Virus record (IMG/VR): IMGVR_UViG_3300033485_000052
Span: 1-34,688 of that record
Source: a virus
Taxonomy: Duplodnaviria; Caudoviricetes
DNA length: 34,688 nucleotides
Strand: one strand, 5' to 3'
Notes under the pieces: model-generated
Told to the model about the DNA's origin: nothing
Databases searched by the model: none
Seen by the model: the letters and a program-made list of their open reading frames with translations, nothing else
Part shown: piece after piece, positions 4,880-23,157 of the stretch
Layout: every line of letters begins with the position of its first letter
How positions within the stretch are numbered: position 1 is the first letter of the stretch
Position numbers and translations under genes: made by a program

Positions 4880-5050
4880 GTATTGCTTTCGGTATGATTA
4901 TTAAAGAGGTGTAAAGTGGCTACCAACCCATTTCACGCAGTTAAAAAACTAAACTCTTAACGCCTAGCAAGTAAGCGTGGATTGGTAGCCGTTAAGGTTT
5001 TAGTAACAAGCTAAACGTGCAAGCAGTGGTTTAGCGTATGTGTAATTATA
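4880..5050 (-). promoter_or_regulatory. Promoter and ~160-nt structured 5' leader of the replication initiator
   Basis: TATAAT at 5045-5050; hairpin 5010-5035; overlapping helices 4990-5004/4948-4962 and 4978-4990/4918-4930. Confidence 0.6.
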
Positions 5051-5060
5051 GCGAATTAAT

Positions 5061-6407: not shown

Positions 6408-7025
6408 ATGAAATTTATAAAAGACTTAGGGATGATGTTCCCAACTGAAAAAAGCAAGAGAAAACATAGATATTCATTATATCAATGTCATTGTGGCAAA
6501 GAGTTCAAAGTCCTTGAAAATGCCGTTAAAACAGGAACAACAAAATCATGTGGGTGTTCTCCATATGCTCCACTTGGAGGTTTTAGTAAACATAGGCTTT
6601 ATGGCACATGGAGGCAAATAATACAAAGATGTGAAAATAAAAATCATGATAGATATTCATCATATGGTGGACGTGGTATCAAGGTTTGCGATAGATGGAA
6701 AGATATTAAAAACTTCATTAAAGATATGTATCCAACTTTTAAAGAAGGATTAACAATTGACCGAAAAGATAACGACGGTAACTATGAGCCTTTAAATTGT
6801 CGATGGGCTGATGATAGTATTCAAACACAGAATATCAAAGTTATAAAATCAAATAATACAAGTGGCTATAAAGGTGTTCATTATTGTCATAGAACTGGTA
6901 AGTGGATAGCTAGAATTACAAATTATGGTAAAAGAACTTATATAGGTCTATACAATACTCCTGAGATTGCGTATAAAGCATACTGTAATTATATAGATAC
7001 TAATAATTTAGAGCATAGCCATTAG
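6408..7025 (+). CDS. HNH-AP2 homing-type endonuclease
   Basis: CHCG...KSCGC N-terminus; YGGRGIKVCDRW; LTIDRKDNDGNYEPLNCRWA HNH; NNTSGYKGV...KWIARI...YIGLY AP2 domain; SD AAGG. Confidence 0.9.
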   Translation: MKFIKDLGMMFPTEKSKRKHRYSLYQCHCGKEFKVLENAVKTGTTKSCGCSPYAPLGGFSKHRLYGTWRQIIQRCENKNHDRYSSYGGRGIKVCDRWKDIKNFIKDMYPTFKEGLTIDRKDNDGNYEPLNCRWADDSIQTQNIKVIKSNNTSGYKGVHYCHRTGKWIARITNYGKRTYIGLYNTPEIAYKAYCNYIDTNNLEHSH

Positions 7026-10467: not shown

Positions 10468-11067
10468 TTAATATGTAATTATAAATTCACCATCTACGAG
10501 AGATGGAAGTGATGTTGCGCCACTAGTATATGATACTATTAGATCACCATCTGACAAAGAAAAATTAGCCCAGTCCATATTTGCATAAGCAGCAGATATT
10601 AAAGAAGAGCTAAGGGCAGACGAGGCAGAAGCAGCAGCATTTGTTTCCGAAGTGGAGGCATTACTTGCAGCATTAACGGAAGTTATAGCAGAAGCAGCAG
10701 CATTTGCAGCGTCAATAGCAACTTGTTGAGATACTGGCCCTACTGTAACATCATCTAAAACATAATCAGATGAAAGCCTAGAATAAATTAATACCCCATT
10801 CTTATCTTTTACAGTAATAGAGTATGCCCCACTTGCAAAGTCTGTATAGATACGAGAAGGAGAGCCATTACGTATAGGGTATCCAGATGATGTACGTATA
10901 GGCTGCAATGCTGGTTGGGTTAGGGCATTATCCCAATATACAGTTCTTGGATTCGTTTCTGGGTTAAGATTATTTGCCCCTATATATACCTTACCGTCCT
11001 CAAGAGGAAGGCCATCAGCCCCATAGAATGATAATATAGGCTGACTGATAGTTTGATACCCTGCCAT
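10468..11067 (-). CDS. Tail adaptor with a P22 tailspike-like head-binding domain
   Basis: FYGADGLPLEDGKVYIG...NP...QPIRTSSGYP...YSITVKDKNG; Ala/Ser linker; short C-terminal DGDLIVSY/DGEFIITY repeat; no catalytic domain. Confidence 0.75.
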   Translation of the reverse strand: MAGYQTISQPILSFYGADGLPLEDGKVYIGANNLNPETNPRTVYWDNALTQPALQPIRTSSGYPIRNGSPSRIYTDFASGAYSITVKDKNGVLIYSRLSSDYVLDDVTVGPVSQQVAIDAANAAASAITSVNAASNASTSETNAAASASSALSSSLISAAYANMDWANFSLSDGDLIVSYTSGATSLPSLVDGEFIITY

Positions 11068-12959
11068 TATTTAGCCTCCTTCTTAGTTTCTAGTTTTCCA
11101 AGAGCTTTAGCAACTCTTGCTTTTATTGTTTTATCTTTGATATTATTTAGTAATAGTCTTAGACTACTCATAATAGGAGCAGGTACTCCAATAGTTCCAG
11201 ATACTGCCATATCCATAGCCGCTAATATTGTTGCTGCTGTGTTGCTATAATTCACCGAGTTAGGTGGTGAAGTAAAGGCATCCTTCGCAACATCATTAAT
11301 AACTCTCATTTGGTCAGCACCTTTTTGACCTAATACTAAATCAAGCTTTTTGTTTTTATCAAGAGTTTTAATCACTCTGTCTAATTGCGCTGGAGATATT
11401 ATAGCATTTCCAGCCTCGTCCCTTGATATGCCTTTAGTGGCTTCTTCTTTGATGTATCGAACAGTAGCACCTTTTAATTCGTTCCATGCTTGTATACCAT
11501 CTCCACCGCCTTTTTGTAGTAAATCTCTCAATCGTGTAGCATCTTCTAGCGAACTGTTAAGGATAGCTTTATTAAATACATTCTCTGCTGCTATTACTCT
11601 ATCGTCCGACCCTTTTTTAAGACCGATAATATTTTTAACTAAACTTGTATTTTGATAATCTTTAGCTAGTTGAGTACGTGCTTGTCTTGCTTTTTGATAT
11701 AAAGCTCCACCAATACCATCTGTCCCCTCATCAATAGCCCCCTTCATAATTGCCGATTGTCTTATATTGGTAGGCTCAAAGTTGGTAGCGTCATTTATTG
11801 ATCGTCTTAATATGCCCACTGTTTTCAGTGGCACTGGTTGCGCAATTAGATTTCCAGCTTCATCTTCTATCGCTGCACCTAACGATATGGCTTTTTGTTT
11901 AGCAGCTTTTAAAACATTTGCAACTTCTGCCTCTGGTGCTGACTCATTAAGATGTTTTATAAATGAGTCTAACGCAACTGGGGCTTCCATTTCCCCTGCT
12001 TTTTCTGCTTCTTTATAGAGTGCATTTACTTTATTTTTATCATTCTTAAACATCTTCTGAATAGTGCCGCTTACAATACTACCAGCATCTAAATGGCTTT
12101 GTGTTTCAGATCCAGTTGCTTCAAGGAATGAATCAAAGTTCTTAGAAGTAGCAGCACGTTGTTCTGCAAATCTTTCACGAAGCGGTGCGCCAAGTTCAGG
12201 CTGTTTTGCTGTTTCTCTCTCAAACTGTTGTTGTGCAAAATCTCGTGTCTTTTGCCCTTCTGTAAGATTAATAGGGGTAGGTAGTGATTCTGCCTTAGCT
12301 GCTCTTGTTTCTGCTAACAGCGATTGTTCCGGTGTCATTTTAGCTATTTGCTCAGGCGTAATCTTTGCCGTTACTTTTTTAACTAATGGAGTAACTGTTT
12401 TGGTTGCTTGTTCAATCATTGGTGCGACAACTTGCCCTGCTTTTTGTGCTATTGCTGGTACTGCTGTTTTTACAGCTTGTGAAGCTACTCCTAACTCTGC
12501 TGTCATTGGTGCGACTGCCGCTAAAGCTGATAAAGGTTCTGCTACCGCCTGGGTCATAGACATACCAGCTTCTGTACGCGGAGAATAGGTAAACTGCTGC
12601 GCCCCTTGTTGTGCTGATTGTGCAACTGCTTGTGCGGCTTGTTGTGTTCCAAAGTTGCCAGTTAGTATTTGGTCTGCTAATCCTCTTAGAGTTCCTACAA
12701 TATGACCTGCTGCCCCCCCAGTTGCCCCAGTTGCTAAAGCTAATCCAGTTTCACCTGCTCCTACTATTCTTTCTCCGATTGTTGGCTCTACTTTTTTAGG
12801 TAGTGTTTCGGCTACATGGCGTACGCCTTGCTCGTCTGGTATTATTTCTCCCCCAGCTCTAGCACGTTGTATAACTGCTGCAAGTTGTCTAGCAGCTTCC
12901 ATATCTCCTGCTTTATGGGCATTAAATAGTGCAGTTTCAAGCTGTTTTAGAGTTGCCAT
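11067..12959 (-). CDS. DNA ejection (internal virion) protein, P22 gp16-position
   Basis: 630 aa, Ala/Gln-rich and helical; third of three ejection genes. Confidence 0.7.
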   Translation of the reverse strand: MATLKQLETALFNAHKAGDMEAARQLAAVIQRARAGGEIIPDEQGVRHVAETLPKKVEPTIGERIVGAGETGLALATGATGGAAGHIVGTLRGLADQILTGNFGTQQAAQAVAQSAQQGAQQFTYSPRTEAGMSMTQAVAEPLSALAAVAPMTAELGVASQAVKTAVPAIAQKAGQVVAPMIEQATKTVTPLVKKVTAKITPEQIAKMTPEQSLLAETRAAKAESLPTPINLTEGQKTRDFAQQQFERETAKQPELGAPLRERFAEQRAATSKNFDSFLEATGSETQSHLDAGSIVSGTIQKMFKNDKNKVNALYKEAEKAGEMEAPVALDSFIKHLNESAPEAEVANVLKAAKQKAISLGAAIEDEAGNLIAQPVPLKTVGILRRSINDATNFEPTNIRQSAIMKGAIDEGTDGIGGALYQKARQARTQLAKDYQNTSLVKNIIGLKKGSDDRVIAAENVFNKAILNSSLEDATRLRDLLQKGGGDGIQAWNELKGATVRYIKEEATKGISRDEAGNAIISPAQLDRVIKTLDKNKKLDLVLGQKGADQMRVINDVAKDAFTSPPNSVNYSNTAATILAAMDMAVSGTIGVPAPIMSSLRLLLNNIKDKTIKARVAKALGKLETKKEAK

Positions 12960-12961
12960 TA

Positions 12962-14260
12962 TTAACCACCATACTTTTTAAGAAGTGCATTTATATTTTT
13001 TGGTGAAGTTGTAGCTTCTGGAGTATTTGGAACGGTGTCAGGAACTCCGTATTTAGCAGCAACGTTTTTTCGTGCTTTCATAATAAGACGTTGTGCTTCT
13101 CTAACATTCTTTAATAGACGTTCTGGTGATTGTCTAAGGCTTAAATTTTGTAGTGATGTAGAAAGTTTTAACCCCTCTGCATCTGATAAAGCACCAGTTC
13201 CTTTCATATTTGGAATTTGTGCCATAAATGCTTGAGAACCTAGAGTCGTTACTAATTCCTCAAAATCTGCTGTGTCTGAACTAAAGGTAGGCATTCTTGA
13301 AGATACTGGACCAGTCGCAGAACTAACAACTCCTTTTGGTGTTTTTAATATTCTATCAGCAGTATTTAAAAAATTATCCATAGACGATCTAGCAGTATCA
13401 ACCGTTGCTGTTCTCTCTCTTACAGTATCATCACGCTTTTGATACATTTCTTGTAGCTTTAATCCTAGCTCTTGCCGCTTAAGACTATTCCCTTCTCTAT
13501 TAGTAGCGGCATTCATAGCTGCAATTTTAGAGTTCATCTTATTTATTTCAATATCATTTTGTATTTTCTTAATATCCCAACCTTTCTTTTCTAACTCAAT
13601 CGCTGCATCTGATTCAGCAAAATTTGCTTTTACTGCTGCTGTTGCTGCATCTGAACCCGCTTTTTGTGTAGCAATTGCTTCTTGCGCTTGTTTCTCTGGG
13701 AATAGTGCCTGCTCTCTTCTTTCTTTTCCAGCTGTTCCGATAGCATCTTGATAGTCTTTAAACTCTTTTTGCCCCATCATATTAGAGAGCATAAACCCTG
13801 CGATACCAGTTGCAGTATTTGGGTCTTTTTCGATAGTTGTTTTAATCTGCTTAAGTTTAGAAGCGTCTTGTCCTGAGTTTTCAAGTGCTGCTATATTCTC
13901 GTCAATAATGCCATTTGCTATATCTGTTTTTCCGTTTAATAGAGCTGTATATACCTGCCCTGTTGTTTGCATCTCTGCTGCTTTTTTAGGAGCTTCTAGC
14001 ATATCAAAGCTTTGTTTAAATGCCTCTCTTTGTGTAGGGTACTTTGTAGATAACATAGCAAAAGATTGAGGGGTTGGATTGTCAAACGCTGATTTTAAAT
14101 CAGTAGCATATTGTTCTTTAGCTATTGCTGCTTGTTCTTCCGCTTGTCTTGATGATCTCATATTTCTAATAGCTTGGCTTGTTTGTAAAGCACTTAGAAT
14201 ATCATTTCCAAGATTCTGTTGAGGCATAGCCCCTAAATAGTTAATCGGTTCTAGTGGCAT
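12962..14260 (-). CDS. DNA ejection protein, P22 gp20-like
   Basis: PINY N-terminus; C-terminal AFMAQIPNMKGTGALSDAEG motif; synteny. Confidence 0.75.
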   Translation of the reverse strand: MPLEPINYLGAMPQQNLGNDILSALQTSQAIRNMRSSRQAEEQAAIAKEQYATDLKSAFDNPTPQSFAMLSTKYPTQREAFKQSFDMLEAPKKAAEMQTTGQVYTALLNGKTDIANGIIDENIAALENSGQDASKLKQIKTTIEKDPNTATGIAGFMLSNMMGQKEFKDYQDAIGTAGKERREQALFPEKQAQEAIATQKAGSDAATAAVKANFAESDAAIELEKKGWDIKKIQNDIEINKMNSKIAAMNAATNREGNSLKRQELGLKLQEMYQKRDDTVRERTATVDTARSSMDNFLNTADRILKTPKGVVSSATGPVSSRMPTFSSDTADFEELVTTLGSQAFMAQIPNMKGTGALSDAEGLKLSTSLQNLSLRQSPERLLKNVREAQRLIMKARKNVAAKYGVPDTVPNTPEATTSPKNINALLKKYGG

Positions 14261-14269
14261 AATTATCCT

Positions 14270-14893
14270 TTAAAAAAATGCTGATGCAATACCAGCGCCT
14301 TGCAATACATTCCCGAATGTTCTTTGGGCTGTACTTCCTTGTGCTAATTGACCACCTGCAATAGCCGCCCCTTGTTGCCCAAATAGGTTTCCGACATTGT
14401 TTGCCATTGATTGCCCTGCTGCCGCTTGGTTTCCTGCTGCCGCTTGACCCATTTGTGTTAATCCACCTAATCGTCCATATTGCTGATTGATTAGGTCAGA
14501 TAATATCTGTGGGCGATACTGCGCCAATGCTGATTGTACATTTCCGCCTCTTAGCCCACCAGTTGCAGAAGCGTTTTGGAGTAGTGCGTTTTCGCCTTGT
14601 CTAACCATTTCAAGATATTGTGGTGATTGCTCTAGCCCAGTAATCGCTTGTTGTTGCGCTCCTGCTCCACTTAGTCCTAATAAGGCTTGTTGCCCTGATA
14701 GTGCAGTAGTCCCAGCTCCAACATAAGGGGCCATTAGCTCTACAATCTTATCGAACTGTCTACGTTGTTCTTCAACCCCTTGCTGTGCTGCTGCTGCTTG
14801 TGTCTGCCCGGCTTCCGCTGCTGCTTCTCCAGCTTGTTTTGCCCCAGTAATACCGCCTATTGTATCACCAATAAAATCGCCAACTGCGCTCAT
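14270..14893 (-). CDS. DNA ejection protein, P22 gp7-like
   Basis: Gly/Ala/Gln-rich; LLQNASATGGLRGGNVQSAL motif. Confidence 0.8.
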   Translation of the reverse strand: MSAVGDFIGDTIGGITGAKQAGEAAAEAGQTQAAAAQQGVEEQRRQFDKIVELMAPYVGAGTTALSGQQALLGLSGAGAQQQAITGLEQSPQYLEMVRQGENALLQNASATGGLRGGNVQSALAQYRPQILSDLINQQYGRLGGLTQMGQAAAGNQAAAGQSMANNVGNLFGQQGAAIAGGQLAQGSTAQRTFGNVLQGAGIASAFF

Positions 14894-15354
14894 TTATATT
14901 CCTTCCATTGTAATTTTGTTATTCCGAAAATGTGCATATCTACTAAAATACCTTTTTTAATAATAGCATCTTTTTTAATTCCCTCTTTGACAAACCCTAT
15001 TTTTTGTAGATAGTTCATAGTAGAATGGAGATCTCCTTGAACTGGCGCAGTAATTCTAGTAATATCATTTTCTTCAAATACTTTATCAATTACCATTTTT
15101 CCAATATCATGCGAGTATGGAATAGATTTTTTAGTCAATAAAGAGTGCATTTCTATCTCATATTGGTTATATCTAATACAAAGGATAAGACCTAAGAAAA
15201 TATCTTTGTACCATGCTGATATATATTTGGCTAGTGGATGCTCTATTGGGGAAGGAGTGCATGAATCATAGCTAATACATGAGATAATATAATCATCTTC
15301 ATATATGCTATTAATCATTTCATCGGATACATTATCTAATAAATAAAGCTCCAT
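14890..15354 (-). CDS. GNAT-fold acetyltransferase-like protein (DUF2824-like)
   Basis: EMHSLL...RITAPV...NYLQKIGFVKEGIKKDA...DMHIFGIT; precedes the ejection genes. Confidence 0.75.
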   Translation of the reverse strand: MELYLLDNVSDEMINSIYEDDYIISCISYDSCTPSPIEHPLAKYISAWYKDIFLGLILCIRYNQYEIEMHSLLTKKSIPYSHDIGKMVIDKVFEENDITRITAPVQGDLHSTMNYLQKIGFVKEGIKKDAIIKKGILVDMHIFGITKLQWKEYK

Positions 15355-15419
15355 AGCGACTCCTTTTTATAGAGCCGCTGGATGCCCGATTATCTCAGCT
15401 TTTTGATTGCAATATTATA
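15355..15419 (-). promoter_or_regulatory. Promoter plus riboswitch-like 5' leader
   Basis: TATAAT at 15414-15419; GCUG/CAGC and GGGC/GCUC pseudoknot versus an AGCGGCUC/GAGUCGCU hairpin covering the SD. Confidence 0.55.
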
Positions 15420-15426
15420 GCGTATA

Positions 15427-16230
15427 TTATAATGACTCTAAATGACCTTGTGCTTTCAATCTAAAATCAACCAGCCCACTTATGTTATCTTGGATTAATA
15501 TTTCCATATAATCTCCTAGCGAAGCTTCAAGTTTTATAGTAACCCCTATTTCAGAAAATGACCCTGAGCCAATAGTGCCATAAGCACCACCTCCGCCAGA
15601 CCTAGTAACAAAAGATAGATTTGCAAAATCTAAATATATATCTGAATTATTTTGCCATACATCAAACGTGTTAAATGTTCCATCCGCTCCATTATATTTA
15701 CGTAGAACGCATCCGTTAGTAAGTGATGTAATATTGCCAAATAAACCCATATCCCCAGCAGTAGCATGTATCATGCTTAACATAATTCTTTCTATATGCC
15801 ATACTAGTCCATCACTAGGTACTACTTTATAACTTATCGGTGCCGCCATTGTGCCTATTGTTGGGGCCATATTAATATTAACTTTTTCAAATATTGAACC
15901 AATAGCTCTAGGATTACCGAGCGGTCTATTAATATATATTACATTTCCAATAATATTAATTATCTTTGTATAGGTTATATCTGCTGAAGCATGGCCTCCT
16001 ATTTGAATATCATTACCTATTGCAAAACCTACTGCCGATACAACTGTAACTGATGTTGCTCCTATTATTGAGGCTACTGATAATGTTGTTGATACCCCTG
16101 TATGCGTATGAAAATAATCATTAATAGGATAAAAATGTACCCCTGCGTTATGGACGTTTAGCGCACCATTAAGAGAACCTATTGGAACATTATTTGCATC
16201 GAGTAGTTTAACCCCACGTAATTCACTCAT
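15427..16230 (-). CDS. Beta-rich virion/tail accessory protein
   Basis: 267-aa ORF in the tail module; Gly/Ile/Ser-rich. Confidence 0.6.
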   Translation of the reverse strand: MSELRGVKLLDANNVPIGSLNGALNVHNAGVHFYPINDYFHTHTGVSTTLSVASIIGATSVTVVSAVGFAIGNDIQIGGHASADITYTKIINIIGNVIYINRPLGNPRAIGSIFEKVNINMAPTIGTMAAPISYKVVPSDGLVWHIERIMLSMIHATAGDMGLFGNITSLTNGCVLRKYNGADGTFNTFDVWQNNSDIYLDFANLSFVTRSGGGGAYGTIGSGSFSEIGVTIKLEASLGDYMEILIQDNISGLVDFRLKAQGHLESL

Positions 16231-23088: not shown

Positions 23089-23157
23089 CTAAAATTATAA
23101 CGTAGGTCAAAGAAGTGTATTTGACAAGATATATTTATTAATTTACAGCTTGATTAA

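What the first reader, a model, noticed from the sequence alone, without database searches (positions are those of the whole stretch)
15355..15419. Riboswitch-like pseudoknot versus SD-sequestering hairpin upstream of the GNAT and DNA-ejection operon
Seen: TATAAT (15414-15419) then a ~52-nt leader, GC-rich for this genome, ending AAAAAGCUGAGAUAAUCGGGCAUCCAGCGGCUCUAUAAAAAGGAGUCGCU-AUG. Fold 1 is an H-type pseudoknot, P1 GCUG/CAGC and P2 GGGC/GCUC, which leaves AAGGAG free. Fold 2 is an 8-bp hairpin AGCGGCUC/GAGUCGCU that buries the SD up to the start codon. The folds share nucleotides and are mutually exclusive. Established: this is the logic of small translational pseudoknot riboswitches (preQ1, SAM-II and guanidine-III classes), but I cannot match it to any of their consensus sequences. 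Inference: an undescribed ligand- or protein-responsive switch setting the dose of the acetyltransferase and the coupled low-copy ejection proteins.
Basis: partly seen in the sequence, partly recalled or inferred. Interest (0 to 1): 0.78.

Follow-up and report, generated by a model that had tools for sequence, protein, structure and literature searches.

The report
Phage pseudoknot switch for ejection genes
A tiny predicted RNA knot, conserved in over a hundred uncultured bacterial-virus sequences and matching no catalogued RNA family, sits in front of the genes for the viruses' DNA-injection proteins and likely acts as a switch that keeps them untranslated until a partner, probably a virus assembly protein, binds it.

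Summary
The 27-31 nt pseudoknot recurs in P22-like podophage contigs: 132 distinct copies examined, about 810 stored IMG/VR stretches estimated, 44 of 46 loci picked by gp10 rather than by motif. Six of nine pairs show double compensatory changes. A canonical sigma70 promoter usually places its first base at predicted +1. Removing its bases from competition cuts the computed cost of opening the ribosome site from 10.1 to 4.6 kcal/mol (n=129). No Rfam hit. No 5'-UTR copy was found in the 401 and 151 bacterial genomes sampled. Best reading: a default-OFF translational switch for low-copy procapsid parts, turned on by a virion-assembly protein (scaffold is the lead; inferred). A metabolite or a kinetic timer remain open. 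No RNA data or experiment exists.

The parts
15437..15442 (-). -35-like hexamer TTTAGA (4 of 6), 17 nt before the -10
   Evidence: in the wider family the -35 matches TTGACA at 5-6 of 6 in 58 of 86 copies vs 6 of 524 control positions
15414..15419 (-). -10 hexamer TATAAT; predicted start about 15407 (inferred)
   Evidence: kept in 8 of 8 close leaders, TGn-extended in 4
15394..15399 (-). P1 5' strand GCUG, bulged A5, G6
15384..15387 (-). P2 5' strand GGGC
   Evidence: GAAC in 4 close relatives with GUUC partner
15377..15381 (-). P1 3' strand C-CAGC (also 5' arm of the SD hairpin)
15372..15376 (-). one-base linker G and P2 3' strand GCUC (also 5' arm of the SD hairpin)
15355..15379 (-). SD-sequestering hairpin, 9 bp, loop AUAAAAA
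   Evidence: 2 of 7 counted pairs with double changes, 48 of 49 cells paired
15360..15365 (-). Shine-Dalgarno AAGGAG
   Evidence: last four bases under 5% unpaired at 37 C in the nested ensemble
14890..15354 (-). first gene: GNAT-fold, P22 gp14/DUF2824-like, 154 aa; stop overlaps gp7 start (ATGA)
14270..14893 (-). gp7-like ejection protein
   Evidence: PF25688 E 6e-15
12962..14260 (-). gp20-like ejection protein
   Evidence: phrog_2534 E 5e-36
11067..12959 (-). 630-aa gene, gp16-like by position only
   Evidence: no Pfam or PHROG hit; inference from gene order

Best explanation
This is a conserved, covarying RNA pseudoknot family at the predicted 5' end of a sigma70-type transcript for the ejection-protein operon (and in some genomes the portal gene) of P22-like podophages, and it likely works as a default-OFF translational switch that a phage virion-assembly protein, most plausibly free scaffolding protein, would turn on by stabilising the pseudoknot. 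Shown: conservation, covariation of both stems, promoter consensus, gene association, mutual exclusion of the two folds. Computed: the SD-burying nested fold is the equilibrium state and the pseudoknot frees the ribosome site. Inferred: a host-polymerase promoter would fire before capsid assembly, so translation of these low-copy, membrane-active proteins needs gating; portal and ejection proteins are both loaded into the procapsid through scaffold, so free scaffold would be a fitting signal. The identity of the binder is not shown.
For: Pairs: 97.7% of 603 cells paired, 6 of 9 pairs with double changes, 0 of 500 shuffles reach it, slid controls 17-58% (67 diverse copies). P2 third pair A.C in 1 of 88 true-pattern copies vs 14 of 89 in a control pattern (p 6e-4); G-U wobbles on this strand point to RNA. 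A5 nearly fixed: with A5 changed, 0 of 89 distinct hits lead to a known downstream family and one is real by context. -10 hexamer ends exactly 6 nt before P1 in 86 of 132. Ribosome-site opening cost 10.07 free, 4.56 with pseudoknot bases blocked, 7.39 with them shuffled; drop of 2 kcal or more in 118 of 129; window 10.6 to 3.1. Crude energy model puts the pseudoknot above the nested fold in 129 of 129. gp7 is the first gene or lies within 1.3 kb after it in 92 of 92 testable copies. Portal plus ejection copies in 3 of 22 motif-bearing virus records (G006, G009, G419). Only virion-core proteins are shared by all 17 motif-bearing genomes, scaffold at 39-77% identity to the window's. Scaffold is essential for adding portal and ejection proteins in P22 (PMC5529062, passage); P22 scaffold autoregulation seen only as two reference titles there.
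Against: No binding, probing, reporter or RNA data. Nothing in scaffold or any other core protein separates 17 motif-bearing from 7 motif-free genomes. P22, RSK1, VSN-002, the PfAn1 region and four uncultured relatives lack the motif yet have the same operon, so it is dispensable in the group. Anti-SD pairing is largely generic: swapped halves pair almost as well (-6.92 native vs -6.67 +/- 0.13), and only 49 of 127 minimum-energy folds pair 4 or more core bases with the SD region; L002/L003 break one hairpin pair. Protein-activated pseudoknot leaders are rarer than repressive ones (own knowledge). The near-fixed unpaired bases fit a small-molecule pocket as well. The pseudoknot penalty used is crude, and copies are related, so counts overstate independent events.
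Confidence: 0.4

Rival explanations
1. Orphan riboswitch: a host metabolite or ion binds the 27-31 nt pseudoknot and turns on translation, tying virion completion to host state.
For: Size, fixed 3-nt and 1-nt linkers, near-fixed bulged A5, G6-C and junction C-G across genomes of 37-68% GC; modular placement with or without a 5' hairpin; ON-switch logic.
Against: No 5'-UTR copy in bacteria sampled: 7 of 401 genomes matched the pattern (control 2), all 7 inside ORFs; 2 of 151 matched the model, all 3 hits inside ORFs (only 36 candidates per genome scored). First genes (GNAT, cupin/SET, 2OG oxygenase, phrog_21390, gp7, portal) share no substrate.
Confidence: 0.22
2. Ligand-free kinetic timer: P1/P2 form first during transcription and leave a short window for ribosome loading before refolding into the SD hairpin, giving a low fixed dose, as in the Levivirus maturation-gene leader.
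For: P1 is the minimum-energy fold of every prefix until the SD is made, then the hairpin takes over; motif starts at predicted +1; targets are low-copy virion parts; precedent in PMC4615214 (passages).
Against: A timer needs pairing, not fixed bases, yet A5, C2-G, G6-C and the P2 junction C-G hardly vary; copies with an extra 5' hairpin keep the same core.
Confidence: 0.18
3. The pseudoknot has its own job (5'-end protection, an abundant short transcript acting in trans, or a signal that brings the mRNA to the forming portal vertex) and SD masking is secondary.
For: Strong, genome-unique promoter is odd for low-copy genes; the predicted 5' base sits at the P1/P2 junction (geometric inference); a portal/mRNA interaction has been proposed, with little evidence, for P22 (PMC5529062 passage); anti-SD co-adaptation is weak.
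Against: Always 17-40 nt from a start codon with an SD; three-way compensatory change in the window's clade keeps both folds; no terminator-like site after it in the window.
Confidence: 0.12
4. Static SD hairpin or thermometer plus a DNA-level operator or second extended -10 (TGAGATAAT) that only looks like a pseudoknot.
For: TGAGATAAT is invariant in the 8 close leaders.
Against: That hexamer is not kept in the wider family; L1 varies in length; wobble asymmetry and covariation are RNA signatures; SD stays paired from 10 to 55 C in the model.
Confidence: 0.05
5. GNAT-specific sensor (acetyl-CoA, CoA, polyamine).
For: All 8 close and 8 distant GNAT loci carry it.
Against: 102 of 132 copies do not precede a GNAT gene; sisters on the gp10 tree swap the gene and keep the leader.
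Confidence: 0.03

Closest known systems
Small translational pseudoknot riboswitches (preQ1-I, SAM-II/V, guanidine-III, NAD+-II)
   Same: About 30 nt, two-stem pseudoknot next to the SD, fixed loop bases.
   Different: No Rfam match; predicted ON rather than SD-occluding OFF logic; short linker is L3 (1 nt), not L2; found only in phages in the samples searched. Class features recalled.
Protein-bound phage or ribosomal translational operators (T4 gene 32 pseudoknot, MS2/R17 bulged-A operator, E. coli rpsO S15 leader)
   Same: Pseudoknot or bulged-A stem beside the ribosome site; rpsO also alternates between hairpin and pseudoknot (recalled).
   Different: Those repress on binding; here the pseudoknot is predicted to free the site; the regulated first gene is interchangeable, so it is not simple autoregulation by that gene.
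Levivirus (MS2) maturation-gene 5' UTR kinetic switch (PMC4615214, passages)
   Same: Metastable fold frees the SD of a low-copy virion protein needed for genome delivery; final fold buries it.
   Different: dsDNA phage, own sigma70 promoter, pseudoknot with fixed bases, a quarter of the size.
GP20-a / GP20-b and six GP20 leaders of Fremin 2023 (PMC10690425, section read)
   Same: Candidate cis-regulatory RNAs directly upstream of phage genes.
   Different: 63-107 nt class, no Rfam match to RF02991/RF03003; no DUF2824 or P22-portal entry in the searchable tables; the alignment files could not be searched.

Membership tests
Any Rfam 15 family | covariance-model score at gathering threshold | tested here: not met
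   window, 20 family loci at E<=1, a typical copy at E<=10: no hit on the motif
Metabolite riboswitch (general) | conserved, covarying structure with fixed unpaired bases in a 5' UTR | tested here: met
Metabolite riboswitch (general) | expression platform with mutually exclusive fold | tested here: met
   computed only; weaker
Metabolite riboswitch (general) | downstream genes share a metabolite; copies in cellular genomes | tested here: not met
   401 and 151 genomes sampled
Metabolite riboswitch (general) | direct, protein-free ligand binding | not testable with these tools
   needs in-line probing
preQ1-I / SAM-II / guanidine-III / NAD+-II | class consensus and classical H-type stacking | tested here: not met
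   no Rfam match; linkers here are 3 nt (L2) and 1 nt (L3)
Protein-bound translational operator | a cognate protein encoded by every carrier | tested here: inconclusive
   only core virion proteins are shared by 17 of 17 carriers, and they are also in non-carriers
Protein-bound translational operator | binding changes translation | not testable with these tools
   needs gel shift and reporter
Kinetic (Levivirus-type) leader | permissive fold forms first, inhibitory fold is more stable | tested here: met
   prefix folding, crude energies; refolding rate not testable
RNA thermometer | SD melts over the physiological range | tested here: not met
   last four SD bases stay 88% or more paired from 10 to 55 C in the model
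HDV-like or other small ribozyme; xrRNA | double pseudoknot or catalytic core; exonuclease resistance | not tested
   no Rfam match; core is 27-31 nt, smaller than these classes as recalled; activity not testable here

The most novel reading that the evidence does not exclude
A phage-only riboswitch class, among the smallest known, whose ligand pocket is built around the transcript's own first nucleotide and which lets podophages license synthesis of portal and DNA-ejection proteins by sensing a host small molecule.
Probability: 0.22. Interest if true: 0.92.

Novelty: new variant of a known kind. Interest (0 to 1): 0.74.

Why it matters
How tailed phages make a dozen or so portal and ejection subunits beside hundreds of coat subunits, and at the right time, is poorly understood. 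This 50-nt leader gives a directly testable handle: it is small enough to synthesise, probe and crystallise, comes with natural compensatory variants, and marks two procapsid components at once. If a protein turns it on, it is a rare activating operator linking assembly state to translation; if a metabolite does, it is a new riboswitch class confined to phages.

Tried and rejected
Window-specific patterns: 104 viral hits held only the 4 close relatives and 74 genome-contig hits showed no convincing copy by eye (L181 scored E 0.33); they were too narrow, since the loop GAUAAU is clade-specific. BLAST of the region, the GNAT and two typical leaders against cultured phages found only MW202867. 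The broad GNAT alignment was too variable for a locus scan. Gene-content comparison found no accessory protein exclusive to carriers. The careful gp10 tree did not finish; the quick tree was used only to show gene swaps among sisters, not to count independent changes. L515/G010 (E 8e-5, before an unrelated gene) and a weak opposite-strand hit in G429 are left unassigned. Rejected: GNAT-specific ligand, thermometer, DNA operator or second promoter, known riboswitch classes. Ten literature searches listed no paper on this motif; the supplement of PMC5737381 and the alignment files of PMC10690425 could not be read, so an unnamed catalogue entry there is not excluded.

Full report
Observation. The element lies on the minus strand of a 34.7-kb P22-like podophage genome (portal, coat, gp10 and gp7 by Pfam), in the 72-nt gap before a 154-aa GNAT-fold gene whose stop overlaps the gp7 start. 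The leader folds at -16.1 kcal/mol (z -3.29), the strongest of 46 leaders compared in the genome. Rfam gives no match.

Close relatives. Seven further leaders from GNAT homologues at 67-94% identity keep TATAAT and P1. Four of them change P2 from GGGC/GCUC to GAAC/GUUC and change the SD side in step, so one substitution is compensated in both folds. P2 is paired in 28 of 28 cells and the hairpin in 48 of 49, with two double changes. This is one clade split, so on its own it is thin.

The family. Eighty loci picked by gp10 similarity removed that limit. All 8 with a distant GNAT carry the same pseudoknot with compensated P1 variants. Of the 46 loci that reach gp7, 44 carry it and L251 and L268 do not. 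A pattern scan of IMG/VR stopped at 120 loci and estimated about 810 stored stretches; the A1-U variant adds about 150; these are stretches, not genomes. Consensus: R-C-Y-G, bulged A, G, a loop of variable length, (G)-R-G-C, N-N-C, C-R-G-Y, R, G-C-Y-(C), then 17-40 nt to a start codon. In 67 diverse copies 97.7% of cells pair and 6 of 9 pairs have double changes, 0 of 500 shuffles. Many bases were fixed by my patterns, so invariance was checked separately: with A5 changed, about 220 stretches match, but 0 of 89 distinct hits lead to a known downstream family and one is real by context. That set is also a control for P2: A.C at the free pair occurs in 14 of 89 controls and 1 of 88 true-pattern copies.

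Promoter. A -10-like hexamer ends exactly 6 nt before P1 in 86 of 132 distinct copies, and 58 of those 86 have a -35 at 5-6 of 6 to TTGACA against 6 of 524 control positions. The extended -10 consensus occurs once per genome in 5 of 5 carriers checked and not in one non-carrier. So the purine that opens P1 is the predicted +1 in most copies. The window's clade has 13-14 nt between them, and others insert a short hairpin. No start site is mapped, and no RNA run was listed.

What it regulates. The 132 copies (from loci L001-L005, L110-L121, L196-L204, L239-L441; the chance-dominated sets L006-L109, L122-L195 and L205-L238 were left out) precede: phrog_21390 46, cupin-like with or without SET 39, gp14/GNAT 30, gp7 5, P22-like portal 4, DUF6445/2OG oxygenase 3, singletons 3, no ORF 2. 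In 92 copies with enough sequence, gp7 follows within 1.3 kb in 89 and is itself the first gene in the other 3. Sisters on a quick gp10 tree swap the first gene and keep the leader (L248/L265, L287/L310, L252/L259). Of 25 virus records searched whole, 22 carry it (3 were chosen as negatives), and G006, G009 and G419 have two copies, one before portal and one before the ejection operon. P22, RSK1, VSN-002 and the PfAn1 region lack it; in P22 gene 14 abuts gene 26 with no gap. In bacteria, 7 of 401 genomes of one order matched the pattern (reverse control 2) and 2 of 151 of the phylum matched the model; all 10 hits lie inside ORFs. These are samples, with only 36 candidates scored per genome.

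Switch logic. The computed cost of opening the ribosome site is 10.07 kcal/mol free, 4.56 with pseudoknot bases blocked and 7.39 with them shuffled (n=129; native above shuffled in 105; window 10.6 to 3.1). A crude pseudoknot energy lies above the nested fold in 129 of 129. P1 is the best fold of each prefix until the SD appears. Against a finely co-adapted switch: halves swapped between genomes pair nearly as well (-6.92 vs -6.67), though better than with other SDs (-5.49), and only 49 of 127 best folds pair four or more core bases with the SD region. With a 1-nt L3 the stems cannot stack in the classical way; L1 would span both stems and the first base would sit at the junction (geometric inference).

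Mechanism. A host-polymerase promoter in front of low-copy virion genes, an equilibrium fold that hides the SD, and an alternative fold with fixed bases together suggest a default-OFF, ligand-ON switch. The two positions, portal and ejection operon, share one thing: in P22, scaffold is essential for adding both to the procapsid (PMC5529062, passage; scaffold autoregulation seen only as reference titles). The only proteins common to all 17 carrier genomes are virion-core proteins, conserved well enough to read a fixed RNA, but nothing in them separates carriers from the 7 non-carriers. I put a virion-assembly protein at 0.40, a metabolite or ion at 0.22, a ligand-free timer like the Levivirus maturation leader (PMC4615214, passages) at 0.18, a primary role other than SD control at 0.12, a static or DNA element at 0.05 and a GNAT-specific sensor at 0.03.

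Comparison and novelty. It works like a small translational pseudoknot riboswitch or operator but belongs to no Rfam family. Papers seen: PMC5737381 passages (supplement unreadable); PMC10690425 one part of five and four supplementary files, with no DUF2824 or P22-portal entry (alignments unreadable); PMC8954989 passages. Ten searches listed no description. Two earlier scan notes describe pseudoknot leaders before virion genes in other phage genomes; sequence look-ups found no look-alike, so whether either is this family is open. Verdict: real, widespread, apparently undescribed; new variant of a known kind; interest 0.74.

Noticed in passing
slot before gp7 in L242-L441 (window 14890-15354): The position of P22 gene 14 is a swap slot for small enzyme-like genes: GNAT, cupin with or without SET, 2OG-Fe(II) oxygenase DUF6445, and phrog_21390 with a DDxxD-like motif (weak prenyl-synthase leads, score 0.77). 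They may be alternative modifiers of ejection proteins (inference).
   Followed up: partly
L573 (G006) and L241 (PfAn1): A roughly 200-aa gene plus a GNAT-like gene precede gp7; the G006 copy of the motif has U in place of the bulged A.
   Followed up: partly
L430:3-293 and L412:356-643: The motif follows a terminase-like gene but precedes an HNH endonuclease or an unknown gene, perhaps inserted between leader and portal.
   Followed up: no
L343, L366, L389, L406, L419, L356, L433: High-GC carriers insert a GC-rich hairpin (often GACCGG...CCGG) between the -10 and the pseudoknot.
   Followed up: partly
window 23093-23101 and 5044-5052 (minus strand): Other -10 sites of the same CG(C/T)TATAAT type, one just before the scaffold gene and kept in G424.
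   Followed up: no
window, many genes: AAAGGA-type SDs and TATAAT without a good -35 resemble Campylobacterota signals (recalled); host not tested.
   Followed up: no
L515:1498-1556: Weak copy (E 8e-5) before a 245-aa ORF lying opposite a head-morphogenesis-like gene of a different phage type; real or chance undecided.
   Followed up: partly
window 6408-7025 (+): The only substantial plus-strand gene, with an AP2 domain, probably a homing endonuclease.
   Followed up: no
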